Assembly: GCA_041662205.1 (NCBI GenBank)
Contig: JBAZSZ010000002.1
Coordinates: 27,957 to 91,956, forward strand
Length of the DNA: 64,000 nt
DNA from: Minisyncoccota bacterium
GTDB taxonomy: Bacteria > Patescibacteriota > Minisyncoccia > Phycocordibacterales > UBA9973
Reading direction: 5' to 3'
Shown: one piece after another, positions 14,476-63,069 of the stretch
How the letters are laid out: each line of letters opens with the position of its first letter
Numbering within the stretch: position 1 is the first letter of the stretch
The notes under the pieces: generated by a model
Database searches by the model: none
What the model was told of the DNA's origin: nothing
The model's input: only the letters and a program-made list of their open reading frames with translations
Translations under genes and position numbers: made by a program

Positions 14476-15216
14476 TTATTCTATAATCTTTTTAAACTCT
14501 TCTGGTATTGGAGATTCTATTTTTATAGTTTCACCTTTAAGATTCTTAAATTCTATAGATTTCGCGTGCAAAGCTAAGCGCGAGATGCCCTTGGGGCAAG
14601 GATTATCAGGATTATAGAGAGAATCACAAGCGACAGGGTGATTTAAGAATTTCATATGCACGCGGATCTGGTGCGTCCGGCCAGTTTTAGGTCTAACTTC
14701 AATATATGTAAAATTTCCAGACAGGAGCTTATGAAAATTTTTATCGGTGTGGGAACCCTTTAGGGAGGAACCGGAAAAATTTTCATAAGCTCCTGTTTTA
14801 AATCTTTTTAATACTCTATATTGAGTTATCGCCTCTCGCATTTCTCCACGCGCTCCACGACCAGCAGAATAACGTCGAAAGTCCTTTGGACTTCTCCCGA
14901 TAGGTTTATTTATTATCCCCCGTTCATTTTTTACATTTCCCGAAACAATAGCATGATAAATCTTTTTTATTTCTCTGTTCTTAAATTGACTCTTGAGAAA
15001 TTCATGAGCTTTTTTATTTTTAGCTATCAGCATTACACCAGAAGTTCCTTTGTCTAACCTATGCACTAATTCTGCTTTTGGATATTTTTTTACAGCCCAA
15101 TCTAAAATAGTTTTTTCCTTACTGGTTTTATCGGGGTGCACCAAAATCCCCGAAGGTTTATCTATGGCTAAAATATTAGTATCCTCATATAAAATTTTTA
15201 TTTTTTCTGGCATCAT
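14476..15216 (-). CDS. RluA-family pseudouridine synthase carrying an in-frame palindromic insertion
   Basis: HRLDKGTSGVMLIAKN has the catalytic Asp, and the C-terminal PKTGRTHQIRVH motif is present. Confidence 0.85.
   Translation of the reverse strand: MMPEKIKILYEDTNILAIDKPSGILVHPDKTSKEKTILDWAVKKYPKAELVHRLDKGTSGVMLIAKNKKAHEFLKSQFKNREIKKIYHAIVSGNVKNERGIINKPIGRSPKDFRRYSAGRGARGEMREAITQYRVLKRFKTGAYENFSGSSLKGSHTDKNFHKLLSGNFTYIEVRPKTGRTHQIRVHMKFLNHPVACDSLYNPDNPCPKGISRLALHAKSIEFKNLKGETIKIESPIPEEFKKIIE
14722..14795. repeat. 74-bp palindromic element inserted in frame in the pseudouridine synthase gene
   Basis: There are perfect 21-bp inverted repeats: caggagcttatgaaaattttt and aaaaattttcataagctcctg. 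They flank a 32-bp GC-rich core. The element encodes an extra peptide, GAYENFSGSSLKGSHTDKNFHKLL. Confidence 0.7.
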
Positions 15217-35814: not shown

Positions 35815-35843
35815 AAAATTTAAAAGAAATTAGAATTTGTTGT

Positions 35844-37672: not shown

Positions 37673-37690
37673 AATAAGAAAATATAAAAT

Positions 37691-37764
37691 TTAGAAAGCC
37701 TTGCGCAGCCGGGTAGGCGAGCAGTTCGCTGGCGAAGCTTCGCCAGATAGATTGCTTTATAAAT
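37691..37764 (-). repeat. GC-rich ~75-nt intergenic element, copy 2, 30 nt 3' of the TrmH-family gene
   Basis: Hairpin ctggcgaagcttcgccag. The loop and stem differ from copy 1, but pairing is preserved. Confidence 0.5.
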
Positions 37765-37794
37765 TTTTATATTTTCTTATTTTAAATACTAAAA

Positions 37795-38274
37795 TTATAA
37801 AATCCCAAAAAGCGTTATCCCTAAAGCTACAGAAACATTTAGGGATTCTTTTTTGCCCCGCATGGGAATTTCAGCGATTATGTCGCATTTTTTAAGATTA
37901 ACTTTAGAAATTCCGGCTACCTCTTCCCCTACTAAAAATGCATTTTTATCTTTTATTTTTACTTTTTTATAATCAATAGAGTTTTTATTTTGCTCTATTC
38001 CAATAATCAAATATTTTTCTTTCTTTAATTTGGCTAAAAGTGGTGAAATATTTTTTTTCTGCTCCCAAGACACAAATTCTTCTGCCCCTAATGCTGATTT
38101 TGCTAAGTCTCCCCTTTTCCTCCCGAATCTATCCAGAGGCGTCGGTGTGTAACCCGTCAAATAGATCTTATCTATACCCGCCGCGTCAGCTGTCCGAAAC
38201 ATCGCTCCAACGTTCTCCACGCTTCGGATATTATGTAAGATTACTATATTCTCTTTTTGATTTTCTTTTTTCAT
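37795..38274 (-). CDS. SpoU/TrmH-family RNA 2'-O-methyltransferase
   Basis: SVENVGAMFRTADAAGIDKIYL...NVSVALGITLFG are the SPOUT motifs. Confidence 0.8.
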   Translation of the reverse strand: MKKENQKENIVILHNIRSVENVGAMFRTADAAGIDKIYLTGYTPTPLDRFGRKRGDLAKSALGAEEFVSWEQKKNISPLLAKLKKEKYLIIGIEQNKNSIDYKKVKIKDKNAFLVGEEVAGISKVNLKKCDIIAEIPMRGKKESLNVSVALGITLFGIL

Positions 38275-38292
38275 TATTTTCTACATTTATTT

Positions 38293-39498
38293 TTATAAAA
38301 AGTTTTTATTCCGCATATTTTTGTGATACGCGATGGCAAATCTATGTGCTTCACTGTTCGCTAATAGAATTTCCCTTTTATATTTTAATCCAAAATCCCT
38401 ATCTCCCATGATGGCTTTCGGTTTATGGCGTTCATCTTTAACTACAGAAACTACAGGGATATTTATACCCATTTTTTTTAATATATTTTTTACTACATTT
38501 ATTTGCGCCACACCACCATCTACAACTATTAAATTTGGGAACATCCATTCTCTGTGAATTAACCTCCTTTCTAAAACTTCCGCCAGCGCACCAGTATCAT
38601 TTGCTTTATTCTGAGTCTTGATCTTAAATTTTCTATATTCATTCTTTGCCACTTCTCCGTCTTCTAAAACTGTCATTACCCCAACCATATTTTTACCAGC
38701 CATATGAGCTATATCATAAGATTCAATTCTAAAATTCCCCCTCTCCTTGATAAGGAGAGGGTTGGGGTGAGGTGAATTTTTTATCAACGCTACATCATTT
38801 ATGTGCTGCAAGGCGAAGAGTTGTTTTTTTAATTCTTGTGCTTTCTCAAATTCTTTCTCTTTTGCTTTTTGCATCATCAATTTTTTCAAATCCTTTACAA
38901 TATCTTTCTTTTTACCATTAAAGAAAAGTTTCAAATATTTAATATTGTCCAAATAAATTTTACTCGGAGACAATGCATCTGGAGTTAATCCAAGTTGCTT
39001 ATAAAATTCATAATTTTGTTTTTTACTAGATTTATCATCAATGAAAGGAAAAATTTTACGTAAAATTTTTAATGCCTCATGCAACTGTGTACCGCTAGTA
39101 AATGGACCGAAGATACTACCTTTGTAATTTTTTAAAACTCTGCCTCTGACTACCAATACCCTTGGTAATTTCTCTTTTGTAATACAAACATAATTAAAAC
39201 TTTTATCATCTTTTTCTTTCGTATTGTAATATGGCTGATATTTTTTTATCAGATTCGCTTCTAAAATAATTGCTTCTAAAACAGAGTCAGTGACTTCCCA
39301 TTTTATATTATCTGATTTAAAAACCATATCTAAAACAAGCGGACCTCTGGTATTTATTAAGTCCTTACTAAAATAACTCTTTATGCGATCTCGTAGAGAC
39401 GTCGCTTTACCAATATATAAAATCTTCTTATTTTTTAAAAAAAAATATACACCGGGTTTATCTGGTAATTTCAATTTTTTTAATGTACCTATTTCCAT
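38293..39498 (-). CDS. uvrC: Excinuclease ABC subunit C, short form lacking the C-terminal HhH
   Basis: GIY-YIG N-terminus (KPGVYFFLKNKKILYIGKATSLRDR), a UVR-like helix pair and the UvrC RNase-H-like endonuclease domain (LIVVDGGVAQ). Confidence 0.8.
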   Translation of the reverse strand: MEIGTLKKLKLPDKPGVYFFLKNKKILYIGKATSLRDRIKSYFSKDLINTRGPLVLDMVFKSDNIKWEVTDSVLEAIILEANLIKKYQPYYNTKEKDDKSFNYVCITKEKLPRVLVVRGRVLKNYKGSIFGPFTSGTQLHEALKILRKIFPFIDDKSSKKQNYEFYKQLGLTPDALSPSKIYLDNIKYLKLFFNGKKKDIVKDLKKLMMQKAKEKEFEKAQELKKQLFALQHINDVALIKNSPHPNPLLIKERGNFRIESYDIAHMAGKNMVGVMTVLEDGEVAKNEYRKFKIKTQNKANDTGALAEVLERRLIHREWMFPNLIVVDGGVAQINVVKNILKKMGINIPVVSVVKDERHKPKAIMGDRDFGLKYKREILLANSEAHRFAIAYHKNMRNKNFL

Positions 39499-39504
39499 AT
39501 AATT

Positions 39505-42156
39505 TTATCTTTTCAACACTCTTTTAAGATATTTTCCAGTATAACTCTTTGCATTGTTCGCTATTTCTTCAGGCGTACCTTTGGCAACAATCTTGCCTCC
39601 ATTTACTCCACCCTCTGGGCCAATGTCTATAATATAGTCGGAGCTTTTTACAATATCAAGATTATGTTCAATCAAAACGATAGTATTCCCATGAGATACT
39701 AATTTATTTAAAACTTCCAAAAGTTTTTGCACATCATCATAATGAAGCCCCACGGTCGGCTCATCTAAAAGATAAATTGTTTTTTCTAAATGCGGTCGAT
39801 AAAGCTCACTACTAATTTTTACCCGTTGCGCTTCCCCTCCAGAGAGCGTGGTAGCTGATTGTCCGAGCTCTAAATAACCAAGGCCTACATCAGATAGAGT
39901 TTGAAGCCTGTCAGAAATTGCGGGAATATCTTTAAAAAAGATTAACCCATTTTCTACAGTCATGTGTAACACTTCATAAATATTTTTTTTCTTATATTTT
40001 ACAGTAAGCGTCTCTTTGTCAAAACGTTTTCCATTACAAACATCACAAGTCACATAAACTGTGGGTAAAAAATGCATTTCAACGGCTATTTCCCCATTAC
40101 CCTCGCAAGCTTCACATCGTCCGCCTTTTACATTAAAAGAAAAACGATTCGCTTTCCAGCCTCGCAAACGAGCTTCTTCTGTAGAAGCAAAAAGGTCCCG
40201 AATGTGCGTAAAAGCACCAGTATAAGTGACAATGTTTGAGCGTGGGGTCCTGCCAATCGGCGACTGATCAATTAAAATGACTCTTGATAAATATTCAGTT
40301 CCAGAAAAAGAAGAACAATTAAATATTTTTGCCGTACGATATTTTCTTTCAAAACGGGCTTGAAGATTTTTATAAAGAATCTCATACATTAGAGAACTTT
40401 TTCCAGAACCAGAAACTCCAGTAATAGAGGTCATCACTCCGAGTGGCACTTCTACATTTAAATTATTTATATTAAAAATATTTCCGCCTACTATGCGAAG
40501 TACGCCTTTCGGATGGCGTCGCTTATTTGGAATTTCTATTCTAGTTTCATCCCGCAAGTAACTAAGCGTACGAGAATTATTCGTATTCTTTTTTGCAGTT
40601 AATAAATCTTCAAGATAACCAGAAACAATAACTTCTCCGCCGTGCACTCCAGCCTTAGGGCCGATATCCACTATAAAATCCGAAGCATAAATAGTATCTT
40701 CGTCGTGTTCTACAATTAAGATGGTATTACCAAGATCACGCAAGTTTTGAAGGGTTTTAATCAAGCGATCATTGTCTCTTTGATGAAGTCCGATAGTCGG
40801 CTCATCTAACACATAAAGCGCACCGACGAGCCTAGAGCCAAGCTGAGAAGCTAAGCGTATACGTTGCGCTTCTCCACCAGAGAGAGTGTTTGCCTTGCGA
40901 GATAATTGCAAATAATCTAAACCCACATCCAGCATAAATTGGAGCCTGGCTTCTATCTCCTTTACCACTGGCACAGATATTTCTTTCTCTTGTTCTGAAA
41001 GTTTTAAGTTTTTAAAAAAATCGTGCGCATCTTTTATGGAAAGAGAAGATAATTCTAAAATATTTACCTTCCCCGAAACCAGGTTTAGGGACTTTTGTTT
41101 TTTGCTATCTGCCCCTAAACCTGGTTTCGGGGAAATAGAAGAATACAAAAACACATTTAGCGCTTCAGGACGTAATCGCGCTCCATGACAAACTTCACAT
41201 GGTTCATCTCCCATAAAATATTTTGAACCAAGACCGTTACATTCCGGACAGGCACCATAAGGTGAATTAAAAGAAAATAATCTAGGCTCTACTTCTGGAA
41301 AAGAAAAACCATCATTCTTGCAAGCAAATTTTGATGACATTATAAACTCTTCAGCACCAATCTTTATAGCTACCAAACCATCTGATTCAAGAAGTGCCCG
41401 TTCTAGAGCTTCAGCAAGGCGCATTCTACTATTATCTTTATTATCTTCAAACTCATGTACTGCAAAATGATCAACAAGAATATCAATATTGTGAGCTTTG
41501 TTTTTTGAAAGAGTTATTTGTTCGCGAAGCTTTTTCATTACCCCATCAAGACGAATTTCTGCAAAACCTTTTCCAAGTAAATCATAAAGTAATTGATAAT
41601 ATTCGCCCTTTCGTCCGCGCACTATCGGGGAAAAAATACTTATTTCAGTTTCATCCCATTCTACTCCCATAACTTTTTTATTTTTCTTAGAATTTTTACC
41701 TAAGGTATTAATTTTTTCTAAAACAAAATTTAAAATTTCTTCGTTAGAAAGTTTTTTAATTTCCTCACCGCACAAAGGACAATGCGGGTGCCCAATGCGT
41801 GCATACATCACTCGCAGGTAATCATAGATTTCTGTAATCGTCGCCACTGTCGAGCGTGGATTGTTTGAACGAGATTTTTGGTCAATCGAAATTGCTGGTG
41901 AAAGACCTGTGATCTCATCCACGTTAGGCTTTGGCATTTGATTCAAAAATTGTCGAGCATAAGAAGAAAGAGATTCCACATATCGGCGTTGACCTTCAGC
42001 AAAAATGGTATCAAAAGCCAGAGACGATTTTCCGGAACCAGAAACCCCAGTAATGGCTATCATCTTGTTACGTGGCATTTCCAATGAAATATTCTTCAGA
42101 TTATGCGTCCGTGCCCCTTTAACTATTATTTTATCTATATTTTGTTGATTTTTCAT
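39505..42156 (-). CDS. uvrA: Excinuclease ABC subunit A
   Basis: Two ABC ATPase modules, zinc fingers ([25 protein letters not shown]) and conserved UvrA signatures throughout. Confidence 0.95.
41067..41136. repeat. ~70-bp palindromic element inserted in frame in uvrA
   Basis: Inverted repeats ttccccgaaaccaggtttaggg(ac) and (g)cccctaaacctggtttcggggaa flank a T-rich spacer. It encodes an extra [21 protein letters not shown] segment. E. coli UvrA has no such stretch after ARLRxEA. Confidence 0.65.
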
Positions 42157-43372: not shown

Positions 43373-45679
43373 CTATTTCTTTTCCAATTTCAAACGAAGT
43401 ACTCCAATTTCGTCTCTTAAGATCGCCGCTGTTTCAAAATCTAACTCTTTTACCGCTTTATTCATTTCTTTTTCCTTCATTTTAATTATTTTTTCGTAAA
43501 TTAAATTACCAATTTCTTCATCAGATAAATAAGACTGTCCAAGACTGGTGTTTGGTATTTTTTTATTAATTTTTTTATCTTTTTTAAATTCTTTCGCATA
43601 AGCCCGCTTGAAAACTTCTAGATCAAGCTTGAGTTCCGCATTCACCACTTTGCCATGCTCACTCTCCATTTCTTCAGTAATGTCTTTTATCTTTTTTATA
43701 ATTGTTTTCGGAGTAATGCCATGCTTTTTGTTATAAGCAAGCTGAATGTTTCTACGACGAGCAGTTTCCTTTAGAGCATAATCCATTGCTCCCGTCATGA
43801 TATCAGCATAGAGAATAACCTTTCCCTCACTATTGCGAGCTGCGCGACCAATAGTTTGGATTAAGGATGTTTCGGATCGTAAAAATCCAGCTTTATCAGC
43901 ATCCAAAATTCCAATCAGAGCAACTTCTGGCAAATCGAGCCCTTCACGCAACAGATTAACTCCGACCAAAACATCAAATTCTCCTTTTCGAAACTGAGTC
44001 AGAATTTTAATTCTATCCATCGTCTTTATATCACTATGTAAATATTCTGCTTTTATTTTTTTATCCTTCAGATAAACAGAAAGGTCTTCTGCCATTTTTT
44101 TTGTTAGTGTTGTAGCCAACACTCTGAAACCTTTTTTAATTGTTTTTTCTGTTTCACTTATAAAGTCTTGAATTTGACCAGGGTAGTGCTCAAGATGATG
44201 CTCAGAGGAGTATTCGCTACGACCAGAAAGAACTTTCCCTTCCAAGATAGAGTGCGAACGACGGCGAGTATCATCTTGAGCGCTACCTTCAGAAACGGGA
44301 CGAACTATGGTTTCTGGATCTACCAGTCCGGTTGGGCGAATTATTTGTTCTACTATTTGTTCGCTTTCTTTTCTTTCCACATCACTCGGGGTCGCACTCG
44401 TATAAATCACTGGACCAATTCGTTCTTGAAATTCCTTATATTTAAGTGGTCTATTGTCTTTGGCTGAAGGTAAACGAAAACCATATTCGACAAGAGTGTT
44501 TTTACGTGAAGCATCACCAGCGTACATTCCATTTAATTGAGGCAAAGTAACATGCGATTCATCAATAATGGTAAGGAAATCTGGAACATACTCAGAGGAG
44601 TATTCGCTACGACCAGAAAGAACTTTCCCTTCCAAGATAGAGTGCGAACGACGGCGAGCATGTTCCTGGTTTTCTACATGGGGGAAATAAGACAACAATG
44701 TCTCTGGCGGTTCACCTTCTTCTTTTCCAGATAAATGCCTAGAATAATTTTCTATCCCATTACAATATCCAACTTCTTTTATCATCGCTAAATCATAATT
44801 TGTCCTCCTTTTTATGCGCTCAGCTTCTAAAAGTTTTCCTTCTTTTTCAAATTTCTTTAACTGCTGTGCCAATTCTTTTTTAATTTCAATAAGCGCTTTT
44901 TTCTTTTTTACATCTTCTGTAATAAAATGCTTTGCTGGAAAAATAAAAATATTTTTTTCTTCTCTAATTATGCGCGAAGAAGTTGGATCAACTTTTGTTA
45001 TTTTTGAAATGCTCCCGCCAAGCATTTCAACCTGGTACATAACACTTTCAGACACTGGCATAAATTCTACCCGAGAACCAATAGAGCGAAAAGTTCCCGG
45101 ACTGAGGTCTGCATTAGTACGTTCAAAATAAATACTAATTAATTTTTTCATTAAAGTAAGGCGATCTATTTTCATTCCTATCTCAAGTTTTAAATTAACT
45201 TTTTCATATTCTTCTGGAGAACCCAAACCATAAATACAGGAAACTGAAGCTACTATTATCACATCCCGTCTTGTTAAAAGTGCTTGGGTGGAAGCATGAC
45301 GAAGCATATCTATTTCTTTATTTATAGATGCATCTTTCTCAATATAAGTATCTGAAGCGGGCACATAAGCTTCTGGTTGATAATAATCATAATAAGAAAC
45401 AAAATAATTCACCGCGGAATCTGGAAAAAATTCTCGAAACTCTTGCGCTAGCTGAGCGGCGAGAGTTTTGTTGTGGGCGATCACTAAAGTCGGTTTATTG
45501 TACTGCGCTATCACGTTCGCCATAGTAAAAGTCTTGCCTGTGCCTGTAGCTCCTAGGAGTGTCTGCTTCTTCATCCCCTTAGACAGGCCTTGCACTAATG
45601 CTGAAATAGCCTCGGGCTGATCTCCGGCAGGCTCAAAAGGTTTATGTAATTTAAAGATACTTCCTTGATTTTTCAACAT
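43373..45679 (-). CDS. uvrB: Excinuclease ABC subunit B, with two in-frame repeat insertions
   Basis: Conserved GDQPEAI, GATGTGKTFTMAN and DESH motifs plus a C-terminal UVR domain. At 768 aa it is longer than typical UvrB (~660-670 aa). Confidence 0.95.
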   Translation of the reverse strand: MLKNQGSIFKLHKPFEPAGDQPEAISALVQGLSKGMKKQTLLGATGTGKTFTMANVIAQYNKPTLVIAHNKTLAAQLAQEFREFFPDSAVNYFVSYYDYYQPEAYVPASDTYIEKDASINKEIDMLRHASTQALLTRRDVIIVASVSCIYGLGSPEEYEKVNLKLEIGMKIDRLTLMKKLISIYFERTNADLSPGTFRSIGSRVEFMPVSESVMYQVEMLGGSISKITKVDPTSSRIIREEKNIFIFPAKHFITEDVKKKKALIEIKKELAQQLKKFEKEGKLLEAERIKRRTNYDLAMIKEVGYCNGIENYSRHLSGKEEGEPPETLLSYFPHVENQEHARRRSHSILEGKVLSGRSEYSSEYVPDFLTIIDESHVTLPQLNGMYAGDASRKNTLVEYGFRLPSAKDNRPLKYKEFQERIGPVIYTSATPSDVERKESEQIVEQIIRPTGLVDPETIVRPVSEGSAQDDTRRRSHSILEGKVLSGRSEYSSEHHLEHYPGQIQDFISETEKTIKKGFRVLATTLTKKMAEDLSVYLKDKKIKAEYLHSDIKTMDRIKILTQFRKGEFDVLVGVNLLREGLDLPEVALIGILDADKAGFLRSETSLIQTIGRAARNSEGKVILYADIMTGAMDYALKETARRRNIQLAYNKKHGITPKTIIKKIKDITEEMESEHGKVVNAELKLDLEVFKRAYAKEFKKDKKINKKIPNTSLGQSYLSDEEIGNLIYEKIIKMKEKEMNKAVKELDFETAAILRDEIGVLRLKLEKK
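44191..44278. repeat. In-frame palindromic element in uvrB, copy A
   Basis: The 68-bp core (ctcagaggagtattcgctacgaccagaaagaactttcccttccaagatagagtgcgaacgacggcgag) is identical to 44591-44658. Its flanks caagatgatg / tatcatcttg are mutually inverted. It encodes RRRSHSILEGKVLSGRSEYSSE. Confidence 0.7.
44581..44669. repeat. In-frame palindromic element in uvrB, copy B
   Basis: Same 68-bp core. Its flanks ctggaacata / catgttcctgg are mutually inverted, but they differ from the copy A flanks. Confidence 0.7.
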
Positions 45680-49343: not shown

Positions 49344-51818
49344 TCATTTTACTTCCTGTAGATTGTCTCCAAAACCATAGTGTACTTCTAATGGAATGTC
49401 CGTTTTATAATGTAAATATGATTTTTGCAACACTCCCTCCATGGCCTCTTTTATTATTTTTTCAGCTTTTACTAATACACTTTCTTCCACTTCGTAAACT
49501 AATTCATCGTGGATTTGAAGTATTAAATGAACACTCTCTAATAAACCAGCTTCTTTCAGACCTTCTTCTGCATACCTGATAGCTAATTTAATAATGTCGG
49601 CTGCTGTTCCTTGGAGGGGGGCATTGGTCGCAGTCCGCTCTGCCATGTTTTTCAAAAATGGAATTCTGGAATTTATATTTGGGAAATTTCGGCATCTACC
49701 AAATAAAGTTTCAGTATAAGAATTTTTTAATACGAACTTTTTTACTTCTTCTAGATAATCCCGTACACCAGAAAATTGATTAAAATAATTATCATAGAAC
49801 TTTTGTGCCTCTTCGCGTGTTCCACCTAAGTTTTTTCTTAAAGCAGAAACTCCCATACCATAAATAATTCCAAAATTTATAACTTTGGCTTTACGTCGCA
49901 TTTCTTTGTCCACTTTTTCTATCGGTACACCGAAAACAAATGAAGCCACTCCCGCATGAATATCTTTTTTCTCATAAAAAACTTGGGTCATTTTTTTATC
50001 CCCTGAAAGCATTGCCGCTACCCGTAATTCAATCTGGCTATAGTCAAAAGCAACGAGCTTAAAACCTTTTGGTGCAATAAAACCACCTCGGATTCTCCTA
50101 CCAAGCTCTGTTTTAATTGGTAAATTTTGTAAATTAGGATCCTGTGAGGCAAACCTTCCCGTCGTGGTGCCATTTTGTAAAAATTTAGCATGTAAACGAT
50201 TACCAGCGTCTACCATTTTGGGTATAACATCAATATAAGTAGAGAGTAATTTTTGCAACTCTCGATAAAATAATATTTCTTTTATAATTGGATTTTCTTC
50301 TTCTAATTCTTCCAATACTGACACCTTGGTAGAAAATCCACCACTCGCATTTTTCTTTATTTTGTTTTTCCCTGGTGCTTTCATTCCCATTTTGCCAAAA
50401 AGCACTTCTCCTAATTGTTTAGGTGAATTTATATTAAATTCTGTGCCTGCTTGCTCATATATTTTTTTAGTCAAAATATCTAATTCTGTATGATATTCAA
50501 CTGACAATTTTTCAAAATATTTTTTATCTATTAAAATTCCATAATCTTCCATCTCTTTTACTATAGGAATAATAGGTTTTTCTATTTCTTCATAAACTTT
50601 TTCTAAATTATTTTCTTTTAATTTTTTGAAAATATATTCATAAGCTGTTTCAAAAGAGTTCGTGTGAGTAAAAAATAAAATATCTTCCAAATTTGGATTT
50701 GGAAGATCAGAATTAATGAGCCAGAGAGCGATACTAGCTTCTTGAAGTTTTTGTGGGTCTACGTTAGAAGAAGACTCCAGAGAATTTTTGAGCTGGTCTG
50801 GTTGAGCCCGCTCATTCAAAGAATCCTGTGCGGGCGACCCGAGGACCCGAGAAAATTCTGCTGGAGTCTTCTTCTCACCATTCTCAAAAAAATTTTTCAG
50901 CCGTGTTAATAAACTTCTAAATTCAAAAGTTGAAAAAACTTGTTCAATTTTTTTAAAATCTACACTTTCCCAAAAAGTTTTTGACGGCATTGTAAAATCT
51001 ATTGGTGTATCGGTTCTGATGGTCGCCAAAATCTTTGAAAACAAAGCTTCTTCTTCGTTGTGTTTAAGTAATTCAATCATCCTAGGACTGATGCCCGCTT
51101 TTTTAAAAATTTCTTCATCTTGTTTAATTTTTTTGTAAATTTCTTCAATAGTTCCAAATTTTGAAATTAAAATTTCAGCTGTTTTTTCACCAACTCCTTT
51201 TATGCCAATAATATTATCTGAAGGGTCTCCACGTAGGCCTTTATAGTCCGGTAAAAGTTTCGGCTTAAAATGAAACCGATTTACCATGGCATCTTCATCA
51301 TATAAAATAGTATCGTTGATTCCCTTTTTCAAAGTGTAAACCTGTACTTTTTTACCATCTACCAATTGCATAGTATCCATATCACCTGAGGCAATAATAA
51401 TTTTTATATTTTTATCTTTTTTATATTTCTCCACAATTGTTCCCAAAACATCATCCGCTTCAAAGCCAGGCGCATCATATATCGGTATGTCAAAAGCCTC
51501 AAAAATCTGACGGGAGTTTTTTAATTGAATTATTAAGGCATCCTCTGTCTTTGCTCGGCCTGCCTTGTATCCATCATGAGCTTCATGTCTAAAAGTTTTT
51601 TGGGGTAGGTCATAACAAGCCACAATATAATCTGGCTTTAATTCGGTAATTATTTTCATCAACATACTAGAAAGTCCATACAACGCTCCTGTCGGCTCAC
51701 CCGAAGATGACAGAAACTCTGGTAAGGCATGATACGCGCGGTGGATTATGGCATGGGCATCTAGTAATACTAAAGTTTTACTATTATTTATGTCACTATT
51801 TATTTTGGTTTTTGGCAT
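49344..51818 (-). CDS. polA: DNA polymerase I (5'-3' exonuclease plus polymerase; the 3'-5' exonuclease region is replaced by a linker)
   Basis: N-terminal 5'-nuclease fold, then polymerase motifs DYSQIELR (A), RRKAKVINFGIIYG (B) and QIHDELV (C). Confidence 0.95.
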   Translation of the reverse strand: MPKTKINSDINNSKTLVLLDAHAIIHRAYHALPEFLSSSGEPTGALYGLSSMLMKIITELKPDYIVACYDLPQKTFRHEAHDGYKAGRAKTEDALIIQLKNSRQIFEAFDIPIYDAPGFEADDVLGTIVEKYKKDKNIKIIIASGDMDTMQLVDGKKVQVYTLKKGINDTILYDEDAMVNRFHFKPKLLPDYKGLRGDPSDNIIGIKGVGEKTAEILISKFGTIEEIYKKIKQDEEIFKKAGISPRMIELLKHNEEEALFSKILATIRTDTPIDFTMPSKTFWESVDFKKIEQVFSTFEFRSLLTRLKNFFENGEKKTPAEFSRVLGSPAQDSLNERAQPDQLKNSLESSSNVDPQKLQEASIALWLINSDLPNPNLEDILFFTHTNSFETAYEYIFKKLKENNLEKVYEEIEKPIIPIVKEMEDYGILIDKKYFEKLSVEYHTELDILTKKIYEQAGTEFNINSPKQLGEVLFGKMGMKAPGKNKIKKNASGGFSTKVSVLEELEEENPIIKEILFYRELQKLLSTYIDVIPKMVDAGNRLHAKFLQNGTTTGRFASQDPNLQNLPIKTELGRRIRGGFIAPKGFKLVAFDYSQIELRVAAMLSGDKKMTQVFYEKKDIHAGVASFVFGVPIEKVDKEMRRKAKVINFGIIYGMGVSALRKNLGGTREEAQKFYDNYFNQFSGVRDYLEEVKKFVLKNSYTETLFGRCRNFPNINSRIPFLKNMAERTATNAPLQGTAADIIKLAIRYAEEGLKEAGLLESVHLILQIHDELVYEVEESVLVKAEKIIKEAMEGVLQKSYLHYKTDIPLEVHYGFGDNLQEVK
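50767..50875. repeat. ~109-bp palindromic element inserted in frame in the polA interdomain linker
   Basis: Arms gaagaagactccagagaatttt and aaaattctgctggagtcttcttc are inverted with one indel. The GC-rich core has a nested gcccgc/gcgggc inverted repeat. It encodes GEKKTPAEFSRVLGSPAQDSLNERAQPDQLKNSLESSS. Confidence 0.6.
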
Positions 51819-51855: not shown

Positions 51856-53553
51856 ATGGCTTTATTTGATGAAGAAAAACAAAATAAACAATTAGATGAA
51901 TTGCATAAACAAGAAGAAGAGCAATTAGTAGCAACACTAGCAGAATCAAAATACGGCTTACCTTATATTGATCTTTCTCGTTTGGGAATAGACAATGAAG
52001 CGCTTCGTGCCATATCTGAAAAAGATTCTAGAGAACTAAAGATAGCGCCTTTTAAACTTTTTGGAAAAAATATTTTTGTGGCCCTGCATTCCCCCACCGA
52101 TGATCTAATAAAAAGATTAAAGGATGATCTAGAAAGACATAACCTCGTGCCGACTTTTTATATGGCATCTACCGCTAGTATAAATAAAGTCTGGGAAAGA
52201 TATAAAGAACTTTCAATGGCGGAAAATTCTATCGTTGGGGGAATAGATATTTCTGGGGAAATCTTGAGAGAAACTTCAAAAAAAATAGATAAAATGCAGG
52301 ATATCCAGAAAATGGTTACCGAAGCGTTAGAAGGAAATAAAATTCATAAAATTTCTCGTCTGCTTGAAATAATTTTAGCCGGCGCAATTGCTATAAAAGC
52401 CTCTGATATCCACATCGAGCCAGAACAAAACAGGGGTAGATTAAGATTGCGTCTTGATGGAATACTTCAAGATATAAACTTTTTTGGATTGGATGTTTAT
52501 CATCTACTTAATTCTCGCATTAAATTATTAGCTGGGATGAAGCTAACATCCAAGATAGCCCAAGACGGGCGTTTTAGTATTGTTGAAGATAAAGAAGAAA
52601 TAAATATTCGTGCTTCTCTTATTCCTGGTGCATATGGGGAATCAATAGTAATGCGTATTTTGGATCCAAAATCCATCCAAGTAAAACTCGAAGAGATAGG
52701 AATAGAACCTTTCCTTTTTTCTATTATCCAAGAAGAAATTGCAAAACCAAATGGACTTATTTTAGTCACTGGACCGACTGGTTCCGGAAAAACCACTACT
52801 CTTTATGCATTTCTTCGAAAAATTTACTCTCCGGAAATAAAAATAATAACCATCGAAGACCCAGTCGAATATCATTTACCCGGAGTAACTCAAACCCAAA
52901 CCAATGAAGAGAAAGGTTACACTTTTGTCGAGGGCTTACGTTCTGCTCTACGCCAAGACCCAGATGTCGTAATGGTTGGAGAAATTCGTGACAAAGAAAC
53001 CGCTGAGATCGCCGTCCAATCAGCACTCACTGGGCATATAGTTTTCTCTACTTTACATACTAACAATGCAGCTGGGGTCATCCCCCGTCTAATTGACCTT
53101 GGGGTAAATCCTAAAATATTAGTTTCTGCTTTATCTCTTTCTATCGCTCAACGATTGGTTCGCAAATTGTGTGCTTTTTGTAAAAAAGAAAAAGTACCTA
53201 CTGAAGAAGAACTAAAAACTATTAAATTAGTTATGGAAAGTATAAAAAATGAAGGAAAAAGTCTTTCTAATTATAATATAAATCCGGATGCACCGATAAA
53301 ATTATTTTCAATTACAGGTTGTGACAAATGCAATATGACTGGTTATAAAGGACGCATTGGTATTTTTGAAGCAATAAAAACTGATGAAACTATTGAAAAA
53401 ATAATGCCTGAAAATCCAAGCGAAAGAGAAATAAAAAAAGTAGCAAGTACCCAAGGAATACTTTCTATGCGCCAAGATGGCATTGTTAAAATAATAAACG
53501 GTATTACTTCTTTTGAAGAAGTGCAAAGCGTGGTTGACTTGAAAGAGGAATAA
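51856..53553 (+). CDS. pilB: Type IV pilus / type II secretion assembly ATPase (PilB/GspE family)
   Basis: N-terminal MshEN-like domain, Walker A GPTGSGKTTT, Asp/His boxes and a CxxC...CxxC tetracysteine motif. Confidence 0.9.
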   Translation: MALFDEEKQNKQLDELHKQEEEQLVATLAESKYGLPYIDLSRLGIDNEALRAISEKDSRELKIAPFKLFGKNIFVALHSPTDDLIKRLKDDLERHNLVPTFYMASTASINKVWERYKELSMAENSIVGGIDISGEILRETSKKIDKMQDIQKMVTEALEGNKIHKISRLLEIILAGAIAIKASDIHIEPEQNRGRLRLRLDGILQDINFFGLDVYHLLNSRIKLLAGMKLTSKIAQDGRFSIVEDKEEINIRASLIPGAYGESIVMRILDPKSIQVKLEEIGIEPFLFSIIQEEIAKPNGLILVTGPTGSGKTTTLYAFLRKIYSPEIKIITIEDPVEYHLPGVTQTQTNEEKGYTFVEGLRSALRQDPDVVMVGEIRDKETAEIAVQSALTGHIVFSTLHTNNAAGVIPRLIDLGVNPKILVSALSLSIAQRLVRKLCAFCKKEKVPTEEELKTIKLVMESIKNEGKSLSNYNINPDAPIKLFSITGCDKCNMTGYKGRIGIFEAIKTDETIEKIMPENPSEREIKKVASTQGILSMRQDGIVKIINGITSFEEVQSVVDLKEE

Positions 53554-53586
53554 GATGTACCTTGTTTGTTGAAATAAAAAAAGATG

Positions 53587-53760
53587 ACTAGCAACACCGT
53601 AGAATGTTGCTAGTCAAGATGGCAGAGAGCTAAGAGCTCTCTGCCGGGGGAGGGATTTTTTTCTTTTTTTTCTTTTTTTTCTTGGGAGGTTTTTTCTCCC
53701 AATTTAATGGTCCGTTGCACATAATGGACCACCTCCTTTTTTCTTTTAAAATTTAAAAAC
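53587..53760 (+). terminator. Four tandem strong hairpins with T-runs downstream of pilB
   Basis: gactagcaaca..tgttgctagtc (11 bp), ggcagagagct-aag-agctctctgcc (11 bp) followed by a T-run, ttgggag..ctcccaa, and ggtcc..ggacc followed by a T-run. Confidence 0.5.
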
Positions 53761-53855: not shown

Positions 53856-53890
53856 TTGTTTATGCTCCTCGTTTGTCGAAATAAAAAAAG
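53856..53890 (+). promoter_or_regulatory. Copy c of the promoter-like motif (TTGTTT-atgCTCCTCGTTTgtcga-AATAAA)
   Basis: Shares 19 contiguous nt (ttgtttatgctcctcgttt) with copy a. Confidence 0.3.
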
Positions 53891-54217
53891 CATTAATCTC
53901 TAAACAATCCTTTCAGAGCTGAGCTCCAAAAGTAATAAAATATTATAGGATAGCCCCAGAAACTAATAAAAGCTCCAAAACGTCCTATGCAAATTCATAT
54001 AACCTATGGCTGATTGCTTAGAGATTAATGCCTTATTTAAATATCAATAAAAAACTTCTAACAATATTATACTATATGCTAAAGCAAGCAAATGCTATAA
54101 TGTTGATAGCTATGTTGATACCCTGTTGATAAATGTACTACATATACAACATAGCATATAAAAAAATTAATGTCAACCCCCATCATTAGTAAATGATAGA
54201 TTTAACAAAAAACCCTT

Positions 54218-55243
54218 ATGAAAAAAGACAAAGAACAAGATAAGAAAAAAGAAACAACGGATAATTCATTTCTAGATCAAACTCTCCGTCCTACCAAATG
54301 GAATGAATATATCGGTCAAAAACACATAAAAGACAACGTTAAAATCTTGCTACGGGCAGCTCTTGAACGTGGACATATTCCTGAACACATTCTTTTTTAT
54401 GGACCTCCTGGATTAGGAAAAACTACTTTGGCACACTTAATCGCCAAAGAAACGGGCAGACAAATGAAAATCACTTCTGGACCAGCAATTGAAAAAGTGG
54501 GTGACCTAGCTTCTATCCTGACGAATCTAGCTTCCGGTGACATTCTTTTTATAGATGAAATTCATCGACTCAATAAAATGGTTGAAGAAATACTCTACCC
54601 TGCTATGGAGTCTGGGGTTTTAGATATTATTATCGGTAAGGGTCCCTCTGCGCGCACCATCCAGCTCGACCTACCACCCTTTACTTTGATAGCTGCCACT
54701 ACTCGAGTAGCGATGGTTTCCTCCCCGCTTCGTTCCCGTTTCTCTGGCGGAGTTTTTCGCTTGGAATTTTATTCCAATGAAGAAATTGGAGAAATTGTAA
54801 AAAGATCAAGTGATCTTTTGAAAATAACTTTAGAAGAAGATGCCTTAAAAGAAATCGCTAAAAGAAGTAGATTCACCCCTCGTACAGCAAATTATTTTTT
54901 GAAGCGTTGTCGTGATTTTGCTCAAGTAAGTAAAAAAAATTTAGATAAAAAAACAATTAGAGAAGCTCTCGACATGCTCGCGATCGATGACATTGGTTTA
55001 AATTCTTCAGATAGAAAGTTTTTAGAAATATTAATTGAAAAATTTGGTGGCGGGCCTGTAGGATTAAAAACTGTCGCTGCAGCGATGTCAGAAGAAGAAG
55101 CAACCGTAGAAGAAGTGATAGAACCATATTTAATCCAACTTGGCTTATTAGAACGCACTGCTCGCGGAAGAATAGCTACAAAGAAAGCATATGTACATTT
55201 AGATTTTCAGTTACCTGAAGAAAAACAAAGTAAATTAATCTAG
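54218..55243 (+). CDS. ruvB: Holliday junction DNA helicase RuvB
   Basis: AAA+ Walker A GPPGLGKTTLA, Walker B ILFIDEIHRL and a winged-helix C-terminus. Confidence 0.95.
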   Translation: MKKDKEQDKKKETTDNSFLDQTLRPTKWNEYIGQKHIKDNVKILLRAALERGHIPEHILFYGPPGLGKTTLAHLIAKETGRQMKITSGPAIEKVGDLASILTNLASGDILFIDEIHRLNKMVEEILYPAMESGVLDIIIGKGPSARTIQLDLPPFTLIAATTRVAMVSSPLRSRFSGGVFRLEFYSNEEIGEIVKRSSDLLKITLEEDALKEIAKRSRFTPRTANYFLKRCRDFAQVSKKNLDKKTIREALDMLAIDDIGLNSSDRKFLEILIEKFGGGPVGLKTVAAAMSEEEATVEEVIEPYLIQLGLLERTARGRIATKKAYVHLDFQLPEEKQSKLI

Positions 55244-61731: not shown

Positions 61732-63069
61732 TTATTTAAACATAATTCTGATTTGTTCTAATTCTTGTATTAACTGTGGATCATTTTTTAAATCTTCTTT
61801 TATTTTTACACATGAATGCATCACTGTTGTATGGTCTTTTCCACCTAATTTTTGTCCTATAAGTGGATAAGAAACACTGAAATCTTCCCGAAGTAAATAC
61901 ATTATAATTTGTCTAGTTTTCACTATTTCTTTTTTTCTAGTTTTTTCATAAATAGAGTTTTCTTCTAATTTATAATATTCAGCCACAATTTTTACAACAT
62001 CTTTTATTGCCATATTCTTTTTTGGCTTCATATTGTTTTTTAATAGATTTTTAACTTCTGCAAGAGAAGGAGCCTTATTTTTTAAGCGATATTGGCAAAC
62101 AATAAGATTAAGACTGCCTTCGAGCTCACGAACATTTCCTTGGATTGATGTCGCAACATATTCTATTATATCCTCCTCAAGGACTATGTTGAGCTCACGA
62201 AGCCTCACTTTTATAATTGCGATACGAGACTCATATTCTGGTTCTATGACGTCTACGATCATTCCGGCAGCAAAACGGGATTTTAAACGATCAGCTAATT
62301 CTGGAATATAATTAGGATGCTTATCGGAAGAAAAAATAATTTGTTTGTTGTTTTCATAAAAAGTATTAAAGGTGTGGAAAAGTTCTTCCTGAATTTTTTC
62401 CATTTTACCAATAAATTGAATATCATCTATAATTAAAAGATCATACTTTCGATATTTTTCTTTAAAAGAATTTGCTTTATTGCTTTGAAGAGAGTTTATA
62501 AAATCTGTTGCAAACTTTTCTAAAGTCATATAATGTACTTTTTTATCAGGATGCTTGTCTTTTATTGAATTTCCTACAGCTTGAATTAAATGAGTTTTCC
62601 CAAGACCAGTACCACCGTAAATAAAAAATGGATTATATTTAGTTCCTGGTGATTCTATTATTGCTTGAGATGCGGCGTACGCGAGTTCATTAAAGGTTCC
62701 CACAATAAAGGAATTGAAATGATAGCGTGGATTTAGATTATTTTCTGGATTTATATATAAATCTCTCAAAGGCAGTTCTTTTTCAATAGTTTCACTTATT
62801 ATTACTTCTTGTTTAGAATTTTCTATTTTTGTAATAACATATTCCACAGCTCGCATATTTTCATAATTTTCGGCTATAGTTTTGGTTATGAGTTTATGGT
62901 ATTTATTTATAAGCCAATCCCGGACAAATTCATTTGGTACCCCTATATAAACAATCCCATTCTCTTCTTTTGCAATAGATGTGTTCTTAAACCAAGTACT
63001 AAAATTGGCTTTAGACATGTCAGACTCGATTCTCAGTAAGCAACTCTTCCACAATTGGTTTGTGTTCAT
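61732..63069 (-). CDS. dnaA: Chromosomal replication initiator protein DnaA
   Basis: AAA+ Walker A GGTGLGKTHL, Walker B LLIIDDIQF and a C-terminal DnaA-box-binding helix-turn-helix. Confidence 0.95.
   Translation of the reverse strand: MNTNQLWKSCLLRIESDMSKANFSTWFKNTSIAKEENGIVYIGVPNEFVRDWLINKYHKLITKTIAENYENMRAVEYVITKIENSKQEVIISETIEKELPLRDLYINPENNLNPRYHFNSFIVGTFNELAYAASQAIIESPGTKYNPFFIYGGTGLGKTHLIQAVGNSIKDKHPDKKVHYMTLEKFATDFINSLQSNKANSFKEKYRKYDLLIIDDIQFIGKMEKIQEELFHTFNTFYENNKQIIFSSDKHPNYIPELADRLKSRFAAGMIVDVIEPEYESRIAIIKVRLRELNIVLEEDIIEYVATSIQGNVRELEGSLNLIVCQYRLKNKAPSLAEVKNLLKNNMKPKKNMAIKDVVKIVAEYYKLEENSIYEKTRKKEIVKTRQIIMYLLREDFSVSYPLIGQKLGGKDHTTVMHSCVKIKEDLKNDPQLIQELEQIRIMFK

What the first reader, a model, noticed from the sequence alone, without database searches (positions are those of the whole stretch)
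50767..50875. A palindromic element is inserted in frame in the polA linker
Arms of about 22 bp are inverted, and a GC-rich core carries a nested gcccgc/gcgggc palindrome. The element sits where the 3'-5' exonuclease domain of Pol I would be, and it contributes about 38 residues to the interdomain linker without disrupting the ORF. Three of the four affected genes are DNA repair or replication genes. That is either a coincidence of gene length or a hint of target preference.
Basis: seen in the sequence. Interest (0 to 1): 0.7.

Follow-up and report, generated by a model that had tools for sequence, protein, structure and literature searches.

The report
Coding palindromic repeat in polA linker
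A 116-base GC-rich hairpin-forming repeat, one of a family scattered through the genomes of tiny Patescibacteria, sits in frame in the flexible linker of DNA polymerase I and is read as about 38 floppy amino acids, much as the palindromic elements of Rickettsia are, but here the hairpin stays paired as it evolves and the site turns over quickly.

Summary
Window 50763-50878 is a 116-nt palindrome (57% GC in a 34.5% GC genome). It lies in frame in polA (49344-51818, minus strand) of a Candidatus Paceibacterota MAG and encodes residues ~314-352. AlphaFold predicts that stretch to be disordered, between the 5' nuclease domain and the rest of the protein.

It is not ancestral linker. In 71 close PolA relatives the same site is empty (51-93 nt, AT-rich, unstructured) or holds one of several unrelated palindrome families, in either orientation. 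One close relative (87% identical PolA) carries this same element inverted at the same site.

The conserved core (CTCGGGTCCTCGGGTCGCCC...GGGCTCAACCAGACCAGCTCG) recurs in at least 31 places in 19 Patescibacteria assemblies. About a dozen copies are intergenic. The rest lie in polA, leuS, ligA, a uvrD-like gene, mnmA and tsaD, in several frames.

The core is 95% conserved where polA third codon positions are 46% identical. The outer arms diverge but stay complementary, with compensated changes inside one clade. No target-site duplication, transposase, Rfam, phage or plasmid match was found.

Verdict: a selfish coding palindrome resembling the Rickettsia palindromic elements (RPEs) but in a new phylum, with maintained arms and hot-spot turnover. 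It is a new variant of a known kind. How it moves is unknown.

The parts
49344..51818 (-). polA, the host gene. It encodes a Taq-like DNA polymerase I of 824 aa with a 5' nuclease domain and a family A polymerase domain, and no recognisable 3'-5' exonuclease domain.
   Evidence: ORF list, translation and Pfam hits PF02739, PF01367 and PF00476. The best solved relative is Taq polymerase, 1bgx/1taq. The closest database protein is 100% identical and named DNA polymerase of a Candidatus Paceibacterota MAG.
50763..50878 (-). The whole 116-nt palindromic element, in frame. It encodes about residues 314-352 of PolA.
   Evidence: Inverted repeat I1; fold of -55 kcal/mol with z = -4.8; outermost pair in the Watson-Crick-only fold gives 116 nt; z = -12.2 in the window scan. 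AlphaFold pLDDT is below 50 for residues 313-350.
50766..50780 (.). Copy-specific outer arm AGAAGAAGACTCCAG (plus strand). It pairs with 50861-50875.
   Evidence: Sequence. This arm sequence is absent elsewhere in the window. Other copies of the family have different but equally complementary outer arms.
50861..50875 (.). Copy-specific outer arm CTGGAGTCTTCTTCT (plus strand). It is the partner of 50766-50780, and base 50860 is bulged.
   Evidence: Sequence and pair counts on alignment A1.
50781..50859 (-). The family-conserved part. On the coding strand it reads AGAATTTTCTCGGGTCCTCGGGTCGCCCGC - apical region - GCGGGCTCAACCAGACCAGCTCAAAAATTCT, an imperfect hairpin with conserved asymmetric internal loops.
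   Evidence: nhmmer hit to the family profile at 50782-50858, E = 1e-20. The 18-mer GGCTCAACCAGACCAGCT recurs in 31 true copies in Patescibacteria MAGs. The core has 95% mean pairwise identity, against 46% at polA third codon positions.
50812..50829 (-). Apical region between the nested GCCCGC/GCGGGC stem. This is the variable module of the family.
   Evidence: Centres differ between copies, for example TGCTG, CCATTAAGTCCGAGG and GCACAGGATTCTTTGAATGAGC. Some copies carry an extra nested hairpin here (L043 and L067).
44156..44287 (-). A second palindrome family (F2, peptide RRRSHSILEGKVLSGRSEYSSEHH) in frame in uvrB, at the site after 'RPVS'. It is the same class of element but a different family.
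   Evidence: tblastn of the PolA linker cassettes of other genomes hits here. Inverted repeat I9. The host is UvrB by Pfam.
44558..44692 (-). A second F2 copy in uvrB, at the site after 'LLSYFPH'. It is 97% identical over 74 nt to the copy at 44198-44271.
41069..41134 (-). An orphan in-frame palindrome in uvrA, with perfect 22-nt arms.
   Evidence: Inverted repeat I7, z = -9.7, and no other blastn hit.
38738..38774 (-). A short palindromic element of family E (peptide SPHPNPLLIKERG) in frame in the uvrC-like gene.
   Evidence: The host carries GIY-YIG and the UvrC RNase H domain.
14710..14807 (-). An orphan in-frame palindrome with 33-nt arms in an RluA-like pseudouridine synthase gene.
   Evidence: Inverted repeat I1, z = -8.3, Pfam PF00849, and no other copy.

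Best explanation
**What it is.** Window 50763-50878 is one copy of a dispersed, GC-rich palindromic repeat family of about 110 nt, called F1 here. As far as the scans reach, the family is confined to Patescibacteria.

**How it is carried.** It entered the unconstrained linker that follows the 5' nuclease domain of a Taq-like DNA polymerase I. It survives there for three reasons: its length keeps the frame, its GC-rich sequence has no stop codon in that frame, and the 38 extra residues form a disordered tether the enzyme tolerates. In this it behaves like the Rickettsia palindromic elements (RPEs), as non-coding selfish DNA read through as protein.

**How it differs from decaying RPEs.** The palindrome is kept alive at the DNA level.
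- An asymmetric imperfect core is conserved far beyond synonymous sites.
- The outer stem changes sequence but stays Watson-Crick complementary.
- The element can flip between its arms.
- The polA linker, like sites in uvrA, uvrB and uvrC, is a hot spot where occupants are gained, lost, nested and replaced quickly.

**Shown here:** family membership, multi-copy dispersal, in-frame read-through, disorder of the insert, presence/absence and orientation polymorphism, core conservation, and arm complementarity with compensated changes.

**Inferred:** that it is selfish and mobile; that the arms are kept matched by hairpin-templated conversion or template switching rather than by selection for a host function; and that the core is the part recognised by whatever moves it. 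The moving mechanism itself is unknown.
For: **Insertion rather than ancestral sequence**
- 120 PolA homologues at 77-100% identity have different cassettes, or almost none, at this site.
- In 71 loci, linkers of about 90 nt or more mostly have 38-61% GC and fold with z of about -3 to -10. The shortest linkers (51-93 nt, for example L030, L048, L049, L053, L063, L068, L079) have 21-46% GC and z near 0.

**Repeat family**
- The 18-mer of the core gives 44 hits in 185,579 species genomes, where about 17 are expected by chance (my arithmetic). Of these, 31 also carry the partner arm.
- The 31 lie in 19 assemblies, nearly all labelled Paceibacterota, Nomurabacteria or Saccharibacteria, with at least 6 copies in one genome.
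- About 12 are intergenic, for example beside efp, recA and ftsK. The others sit in polA, LeuRS, LigA, a UvrD-like helicase (two copies), MnmA and TsaD, in three sense frames and in antisense.
- nhmmer profiles find 102 places in 1.5 Mb of loci.
- A second family has two copies in this window's uvrB that are 97% identical over 74 nt. In other genomes the same family occupies the polA linker, in both orientations.

**Translated and tolerated**
- All 77 polA loci examined keep an open frame across the linker.
- AlphaFold pLDDT is below 50 exactly at residues 313-350, between confident helices 301-312 and 355-368.
- Taq polymerase aligns on both sides of the insert but not across it.

**Maintained palindrome**
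- Flank-to-flank Watson-Crick pairs have a median of 23, against 7 in chimeric controls.
- On 14 polA copies, 95.6% of cells are paired and 20 of 36 pairs have changes on both sides. None of 500 shuffles reaches this, and slid controls pair 27-50%.
- Inside one clade with homologous arms, 5 pairs show compensated double changes.
- Core identity is 0.95, against 0.46 at polA third codon positions.
- Mismatches are 13 A.C against 7 G.T, so there is no wobble bias toward the mRNA strand.

**Inversion and turnover**
- L066 (87% identical PolA) carries the same element as an exact reverse complement between normally oriented flanks.
- At least 40 state changes are needed on a tree of 71 PolA sequences. 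The window's nearest neighbours carry F2, inverted F1, the short F1 form inverted, or nothing.
- Chimeric linkers exist, such as F2 followed by the right half of F1 (P0010) and others (L041, L025, L006).
Against: - Movement was not observed, and no target-site duplication stands out: the observed distribution is close to the null, with only a slight excess of 3-nt repeats.
- No transposase or HUH enzyme gene lies next to the copies that were examined.
- Only one F1 copy lies in these 64 kb, so multi-copy status in this particular genome is not shown for this family.
- Very strong conservation of the core, and paired arms, are also what a host-useful structure would show.
- The pair statistics on all 14 polA copies cannot by themselves separate in-place covariation from independent insertions of different palindromes, because fixed-length flanks were cut around the core. 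Only the six-sequence clade addresses this.
- The tree used for turnover is a quick neighbour-joining tree, and the 'other' state lumps several families, so the count of 40 is rough.
Confidence: 0.72

Rival explanations
1. A structure kept for the host's benefit. Either the mRNA or the DNA hairpin does something useful. It might pause the ribosome at a domain boundary so that the 5' nuclease domain folds first. Or it might act like REP/BIME elements, as a protein-binding, transcript-stabilising or terminating structure. On this view the extra peptide is a by-product.
For: - Core identity is 0.95 where synonymous sites are saturated at 0.46.
- Arms stay complementary, with compensated changes.
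- The conserved asymmetric internal loops look like a recognition structure.
- Coding copies sit at domain boundaries or loops.
- Intergenic copies sit between housekeeping genes, as REPs do.
Against: - Close relatives do without it, or carry an unrelated palindrome or the inverted copy at the same site. A gene-specific function is therefore hard to sustain.
- There is no wobble bias toward the mRNA strand (13 A.C against 7 G.T), which argues against selection on the mRNA fold.
- No Rfam family matches.
Confidence: 0.15
2. A home-grown palindrome. The hairpin arose in place in an unconstrained linker through template-switch (quasi-palindrome) mutations during replication, with no mobile element involved.
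For: - The copy-specific outer arms and their perfect complementarity are what template switching produces.
- The uvrA and rluA palindromes of this window have no other copy in the DNA held and could be of this kind.
- The mechanism is discussed for the coding palindromes of Nematomorpha (PMC6649704).
Against: - The same 40-80 nt core, with the same asymmetric loops, is found in at least 31 places in 19 assemblies, in unrelated genes and in spacers. It cannot have arisen independently each time.
- Template switching may well explain the growth and upkeep of the outer stem, but not the origin of the core.
Confidence: 0.06
3. Ancestral linker, or a remnant of the lost 3'-5' exonuclease domain, whose symmetry is accidental.
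For: The segment lies where Taq polymerase has its linker and vestigial exonuclease domain.
Against: - The shortest linkers of relatives are 51-66 nt and unstructured.
- Occupants differ in family and orientation among PolA proteins that are 85-90% identical.
- GC content is 57% against 34.5%, and the fold z-scores are extreme.
Confidence: 0.01
4. The segment is not translated but is removed or skipped, as an intein or a translational bypass element, like the byp elements of Magnusiomyces mitochondria.
For: GC-rich hairpins inside genes of an AT-rich genome resemble byp elements (mentioned in PMC6649704).
Against: - All 77 polA loci examined keep the frame and lack stops across very different occupants. 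A skipped element would not need this.
- 38 residues with no Pfam hit is far too small for an intein.
Confidence: 0.03

Closest known systems
Rickettsia palindromic elements (RPE-1 to RPE-10)
   Same: They are palindromic repeats of about 100-150 bp, dispersed in a small AT-rich genome of a host-dependent bacterium. Several families are found both between genes and in frame inside unrelated housekeeping genes, where they add a peptide at a structurally permissive place. No transposase or clear transposition signature is known. (Summary of Ogata et al. in PMC10969869.)
   Different: - The phylum and the sequences are unrelated. The one Rickettsiales hit of the 18-mer scan lacks the partner arm.
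- RPEs are reported to lose repeat identity with time (PMC6649704, citing Ogata). Here the core is 95% conserved, the arms stay paired with compensated changes, the element is found inverted at the same site, and one site is repeatedly re-occupied by different families.
Coding palindromes of Nematomorpha mitochondrial genes
   Same: They are inverted repeats inside translated genes whose arms are actively kept matched. Gains and losses between species are dynamic. Arm conversion or template switching has been proposed, and a parasitic character is suspected (PMC6649704).
   Different: Those repeats are perfect, up to 284 bp, have no shared family core, and both arms encode conserved protein. 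Here there is a shared conserved core, the element is an added disordered segment, and copies also lie between genes.
MITEs and REP/BIME elements of bacteria
   Same: They are small non-autonomous repeats with inverted symmetry. Intergenic copies lie between housekeeping genes, and occasional in-frame fusions are known (PMC10969869, PMC3733652).
   Different: - No target-site duplication was found.
- The outermost arms are copy-specific rather than conserved terminal repeats.
- At about 110 nt the element is much larger than the 20-40 nt of REPs, and many copies are inside genes.
- No partner transposase or REP-associated tyrosine transposase (RAYT) was seen near copies.
GC clusters, double-hairpin elements and byp elements of fungal mitochondria
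   Same: They are GC-rich hairpin elements that invade AT-rich genomes, coding regions included. (From my own knowledge; byp elements are mentioned in PMC6649704.)
   Different: Those are organellar, and byp elements are skipped by the ribosome. Here the frame is always preserved, so read-through is expected.

Membership tests
Rickettsia palindromic elements (RPE), as a kind | Palindromic repeat of about 100-150 bp able to form a stable hairpin | tested here: met
   The element is 116 nt and folds at -55 kcal/mol with z = -4.8. The family median is 110 nt.
Rickettsia palindromic elements (RPE), as a kind | Many dispersed copies per genome, in spacers and in unrelated genes | tested here: inconclusive
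   Met for the family in other genomes: at least 6 copies in assembly CAZQSY01, 3 within 2 kb of L105, and hosts polA, leuS, ligA, a uvrD-like gene, mnmA and tsaD. In this genome only 64 kb are visible, with one F1 copy, although a second family has two copies.
Rickettsia palindromic elements (RPE), as a kind | In-frame insertion that adds a peptide at a structurally permissive place | tested here: met
   The ORF is open through the element. pLDDT is below 50 at residues 313-350, between confident helices. The frame is kept in all 77 polA loci examined.
Rickettsia palindromic elements (RPE), as a sequence family | Homology to RPE consensus sequences and occurrence in Rickettsia | tested here: not met
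   The exact 18-mer scan of 185,579 species genomes found true copies only in assemblies labelled Patescibacteria or unclassified, plus one low-GC contig filed under Burkholderiales. The single Rickettsiales hit lacks the partner arm. Caveat: this is an exact-word test, and no RPE consensus was available for a direct alignment.
MITE | Direct target-site duplication flanking the element | tested here: not met
   The distribution of adjacent direct repeats matches the shuffled-partner null, apart from a slight excess at 3 nt (5 observed, 1.5 expected).
MITE | Terminal inverted repeats conserved between copies and shared with an autonomous insertion sequence | tested here: not met
   The inner arms are conserved, but the outermost 12-16 bp differ from copy to copy. 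No transposase lies next to the copies examined. Whole genomes were not searched.
REP/BIME | Extragenic imperfect palindrome of 20-40 nt with a GTAG or CGTC tag, partnered with a REP-associated tyrosine transposase (RAYT) | tested here: not met
   The size is about 110 nt and many copies lie within genes. No such tag is seen at the foot of the stem on reading the copies. Presence of a RAYT was not testable without whole genomes.
Rfam RNA families | Match to a curated covariance model | tested here: not met
   Only tRNAs reach the gathering threshold in the window. Nothing credible appears at E up to 10 on 50700-50950.
Intein or bypass element | Segment removed after or during translation, so the frame need not be kept | tested here: not met
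   The frame and the absence of stops are always kept across different occupants. The segment is 38 residues with no Pfam domain. Removal itself is not testable with these tools.

The most novel reading that the evidence does not exclude
The palindromes may be a previously undescribed kind of structure-specific mobile DNA in Patescibacteria. On this reading a conserved asymmetric hairpin core is recognised by an unknown enzyme acting on single strands or cruciforms. The unit that moves or is copied is 'whatever is paired', so each copy grows its own outer stem. Elements insert preferentially into existing palindromes at a few permissive sites. This would produce nested and chimeric occupants, flips at the same site, and rapid replacement inside essential DNA-repair and replication genes. 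A second non-excluded version is that the hairpins have been adopted as translational pause sites at domain boundaries.
Probability: 0.2. Interest if true: 0.85.

Novelty: new variant of a known kind. Interest (0 to 1): 0.66.

Why it matters
Selfish DNA that lives inside essential protein-coding genes has essentially one bacterial textbook case, the Rickettsia palindromic elements.

This finding shows the same lifestyle in Patescibacteria, an unrelated and very large radiation of genome-reduced bacteria. Several families share hot spots in polA, uvrA, uvrB, uvrC, ligA and aminoacyl-tRNA or tRNA-modification genes.

It adds three features that the Rickettsia case does not offer:
- a core held nearly invariant while synonymous sites are saturated;
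- stems that change sequence but stay paired;
- flips and replacements at one codon-level site among close relatives.

That makes two questions testable with metagenomic population data that already exist: how short palindromes are maintained (conversion or selection), and how they move.

There are practical consequences too. These inserts inflate and diversify linker regions. They will confuse orthologue alignments, domain-boundary calls and primer design for these lineages. Their peptides (FSRVLGSP..., RRHSHSVLEG..., PSPLxGEG...) will appear as spurious 'motifs' in protein clustering.

Tried and rejected
None beyond the element itself. The 'four genes' carry different palindromes.
- **Source contig lookup** by exact PolA sequence: not on record.
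- **Peptide searches for other host proteins.**
  - A 51-aa concatenate of two cassette peptides found no candidate sharing words, which cost one search.
  - The 40-aa window peptide against 1.84 billion representatives returned only one hit, a polA fragment. Short disordered peptides are poor queries, and the DNA pattern scan was far more informative.
- **Ungapped measure of outer-stem length.** The first attempts failed because of the conserved internal loop and a 1-nt bulge. They were replaced by counting flank-to-flank pairs in a Watson-Crick-only fold.
- **Target-site duplications.** No convincing signal.
- **Mobilising enzyme next to clustered copies** (L105, L113). Only housekeeping genes were found: efp, recA, ftsK, a Sua5/TsaE fusion protein and tsaD.
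- **Rfam** at gathering and at permissive thresholds: nothing.
- **Phage, plasmid and viral-contig searches:** no match.
- **Literature searches** for such elements in Patescibacteria/CPR: nothing relevant.
- **Rejected readings:** remnant of the exonuclease domain, intein or bypass element, and assembly artefact. The same architecture is seen in dozens of independent assemblies.
Full report
**1. The observation**

The region was read directly.

- Inverted arms lie at 50763-50789 and 50852-50878: 27 nt, 81% complementary without gaps, 62 nt apart. With one bulged base (50860) they give 15 + 8 perfect pairs.
- The nested GCCCGC/GCGGGC stem is there.
- Local GC peaks at 57.5% in a window that averages 34.5%.
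- The coding-strand transcript folds at -55 kcal/mol, z = -4.8, and none of 200 dinucleotide shuffles folds as well.
- In a Watson-Crick-only scan of the whole window it is the strongest hairpin inside any gene (z = -12.2).
- It lies in the 824-aa ORF 49344-51818 (minus strand). That ORF has the two 5'-3' exonuclease domains and the family A polymerase domain, and no 3'-5' exonuclease hit.
- The frame runs through the element, which encodes residues ~314-352.

**2. Organism and position in the protein**

- The PolA is 100% identical to a protein of a Candidatus Paceibacterota MAG. Its relatives are labelled Paceibacterota, Nomurabacteria or Patescibacteria.
- The best solved relative is Taq polymerase. 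Residues 16-304 align to Taq 14-282 (5' nuclease) and 402-819 to Taq 423-826 (polymerase).
- The 97 residues between them stand in for Taq's 140-residue linker plus vestigial 3'-5' exonuclease domain. The element begins about 10 residues after the last helix of the nuclease domain.
- AlphaFold2 with a 34-sequence alignment gives pLDDT below 50 exactly for residues 313-350, between confident helices 301-312 and 355-368.

The insert is therefore a disordered tether.

**3. It is an insertion, and the site is a hot spot**

- An alignment of 120 PolA homologues (77-100% identical) shows that the stretch between RLKNFF and KLQEAS holds quite different cassettes in different relatives, or almost nothing.
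- I fetched 80 polA loci from metagenomes and extracted the linker DNA.
  - Linkers of about 90 nt or more mostly have 38-61% GC and fold with z of about -3 to -10.
  - The shortest linkers (51-93 nt) have 21-46% GC and z near 0.
- On a quick tree of 71 PolA sequences at least 40 changes of occupant are needed.
- The window's nearest neighbours carry a different family (L002), the same element inverted (L066), the short F1 form inverted (L001), or nothing (L053).
- Chimeric linkers exist, such as family F2 followed by the right half of F1 (P0010; L041, L025 and L006).
- All 77 polA loci examined keep an open frame across the linker.

**4. It belongs to repeat families shared between genes and genomes**

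- tblastn of the PolA cassettes against the window showed that cassette C of other genomes' PolA (ARRHSHSVLEGQ..SGRSEDSSEH) is the element present twice in this window's uvrB, at 44156-44287 and 44558-44692. Cassette D is the same DNA read on the other strand.
- The two uvrB copies are 97% identical over 74 nt.
- Cassette B (ESFGAGLAGVGDPENRGPEKTLL) is the reverse complement of cassette A' (EFSQVLGSPGPQTPARPFENSL).
- The window's own element (type A) shares its arms with A' and differs in the apical module.
- The almost invariant 18-mer GGCTCAACCAGACCAGCT was scanned over one genome for each of 185,579 species. It gave 44 hits, where about 17 are expected by chance (my arithmetic).
  - 31 of them also carry the partner arm GGTCCTCGG.
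  - These lie in 19 assemblies, nearly all labelled Paceibacterota, Nomurabacteria or Saccharibacteria, with at least 6 copies in one assembly.
- About a dozen are intergenic, for example in three successive spacers around recA, between efp and ftsK.
- The rest lie in polA (ten, two of them inverted), LeuRS, LigA, a UvrD-like helicase (two copies), MnmA and TsaD. They use three sense frames and antisense.
- Profile searches find 102 places in 1.5 Mb of fetched DNA, but only this one in the window.
- There is no match in phage, plasmid or viral collections, and none in Rfam.

**5. Anatomy of the family**

Seventy unique copies show three layers.

1. A variable apical module, sometimes with an extra nested hairpin.
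2. A conserved imperfect core, CTCGGGTCCTCGGGTCGCCC ... GGGCTCAACCAGACCAGCTCG, whose asymmetric internal loops are the same in all copies. It is flanked by TTTT/AAAA.
3. An outer stem whose sequence differs from copy to copy but is complementary within each copy.

- Flank-to-flank Watson-Crick pairs have a median of 23, against 7 when the left flank of one copy is joined to the right flank of another.
- The whole palindrome has a median length of 110 nt (range 68-143).
- No target-site duplication stands out.
- Some copies within one genome share outer arms (three in CAZQSY01, and L083 with L105). Outer arms can therefore travel with the element.

**6. The palindrome is maintained**

- On 14 polA copies of type A, 95.6% of cells in the proposed structure are paired and 20 of 36 pairs have changes on both sides. 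None of 500 shuffles reaches these values, and sliding the partner by 1-3 columns drops pairing to 27-50%.
- I cut fixed-length flanks around the core, so this result alone cannot tell in-place covariation from independent insertions of different palindromes.
- Inside one clade whose outer arms are plainly homologous (L031, L038, L036, L050, L035, L115), 5 pairs show compensated double changes. Two sequences are caught with mixed arms.
- Mean pairwise identity is 0.95 in the core, 0.78 in the apical region and 0.58 in the outer arms. Flanking polA codons show 0.72, 0.85 and 0.46 at positions 1, 2 and 3.
  - The core is thus constrained at the nucleotide level, or homogenised between copies.
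  - The outer arms drift at about the neutral rate yet remain paired.
- Mismatches are 13 A.C against 7 G.T. There is no preference for wobble pairs on the mRNA strand, which points to a DNA-level, strand-symmetric process rather than selection on the mRNA fold.
- L066, whose PolA is 87% identical, has the same element as an exact reverse complement between normally oriented flanks. That is the expected outcome of recombination or template switching between the two arms.

**7. Explanation**

The best reading is a selfish, GC-rich palindromic repeat that survives in genes only where an extra disordered segment is harmless and the frame is kept. That is the lifestyle described for the Rickettsia palindromic elements (PMC10969869).

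- Dispersal, presence/absence, orientation changes and nesting are shown.
- Mobility itself, the enzyme, and the way the arms are kept matched are inferred.
- Arm-to-arm conversion by template switching, as proposed for the coding palindromes of Nematomorpha mitochondria (PMC6649704), fits two results: drifting but paired arms, and no strand bias in mismatches.
- The main rival is a host-useful structure. It is supported by the conserved core, but weakened by the free replacement of the occupant among close relatives.
- A purely home-grown palindrome is excluded for the core by its recurrence elsewhere.
- An ancestral linker and a skipped segment are both excluded by the orthologue data.

**8. 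Target preference**

- In this window the clear coding palindromes are in polA, uvrA, uvrB (two), uvrC and an rluA-like gene.
- The four repair or replication genes make up about 15% of the coding length. Five of six events falling there has a probability of about 4e-4 under a length-only model. This is my arithmetic, it is post hoc, and the sample is tiny.
- Other long genes carry none: PBP1 (857 aa), a DUF11 protein (667 aa) and a secretion ATPase (565 aa).
- Hosts elsewhere mix DNA enzymes (LigA, UvrD-like helicase) with translation-related ones (LeuRS, MnmA, TsaD).
- Length alone does not explain the pattern. Tolerance, meaning floppy linkers and probably low expression, is as good an explanation as targeting.

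**9. Novelty**

Full-text searches found nothing on coding palindromic repeats in Patescibacteria/CPR.

- The kind is known (RPEs).
- The phylum, the sequence families, the maintained arms, the conserved asymmetric core, the flip at the same site and the hot-spot turnover are new variations.
- RPEs, by contrast, are reported to lose repeat identity with time (PMC6649704).

Noticed in passing
window 53890-54035 (intergenic, between the secretion ATPase gene 51856-53553 and ORF 54218-55243): A segment of about 145 nt closed by a 19-bp stem (GCATTAATCTCTAAACAATC / GATTGCTTAGAGATTAATGC). It is 78-96% identical at the syntenic position in about 55 polA loci, which is more conserved than the neighbouring coding DNA. 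A few pairs covary. There is no Rfam match. It is a candidate conserved small RNA of these bacteria.
   Followed up: partly
window 53571-53720: Just after the ATPase gene stop there are several strong hairpins and long T-runs (z = -13.4 in the fold scan). They are probably stacked terminators. Only weak Rfam hits below threshold were found.
   Followed up: partly
window 26931-27800: An ORF with up to 75% GC in a 34.5% GC genome. It has a signal-peptide-like start followed by collagen-like Gly-X-Pro triplets and no Pfam hit. It looks like foreign or fast-evolving DNA.
   Followed up: no
window 44156-44287 and 44558-44692 (uvrB): Two copies of a second coding palindrome family (peptide RRRSHSILEGKVLSGRSEYSSE) at two different sites of one gene, 97% identical over 74 nt. 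In other genomes the same family fills the polA linker, in either orientation.
   Followed up: yes
window 41069-41134 (uvrA) and 14710-14807 (rluA-like gene): In-frame palindromes with perfect 22-nt and near-perfect 33-nt arms, with no other copy in 1.5 Mb of related DNA. They are either private families or palindromes made in place by template switching.
   Followed up: partly
window 38738-38774 (uvrC-like gene); also L107 (ligA), L054, L017 and L053: A short element family read as SPHPNPLLIKERG, PSPLQGEGRGGEV or TSPPAPLLSGEGGQR, recurring in uvrC, uvrB, ligA and the polA linker of different genomes.
   Followed up: partly
window 37660-37795 and 35843-35919: An AT-rich intergenic inverted repeat with a second copy in the window (83% identity) and copies in a dozen related loci. 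It is a separate, non-coding repeat family.
   Followed up: no
L111 (polA of a Nomurabacteria MAG): This polA carries the F1 element inverted in the linker, plus two further inserts inside the 5' nuclease domain (LRPHLTSPYVPSKNRGGTLSLTKGGGG and KKPARPDGRSGGDEDF). polA therefore has more than one permissive site.
   Followed up: no
L021 10862-10993 (polA linker) and L056 3034-3073: A short AT-rich palindrome (AAGACACAAGAAAAGAATGTTCTTTTGAATGTGTCTT) without any GC-rich core. It is either the footprint left after loss of a core or a bare target hairpin.
   Followed up: no
window 61732-63069: dnaA is here, so the window lies next to the probable replication origin.
   Followed up: no
L083 (contig JAMPXW010000002.1): A true F1 copy sits on a 33% GC stretch filed under a Burkholderiales MAG. 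The contig is probably mis-binned.
   Followed up: no
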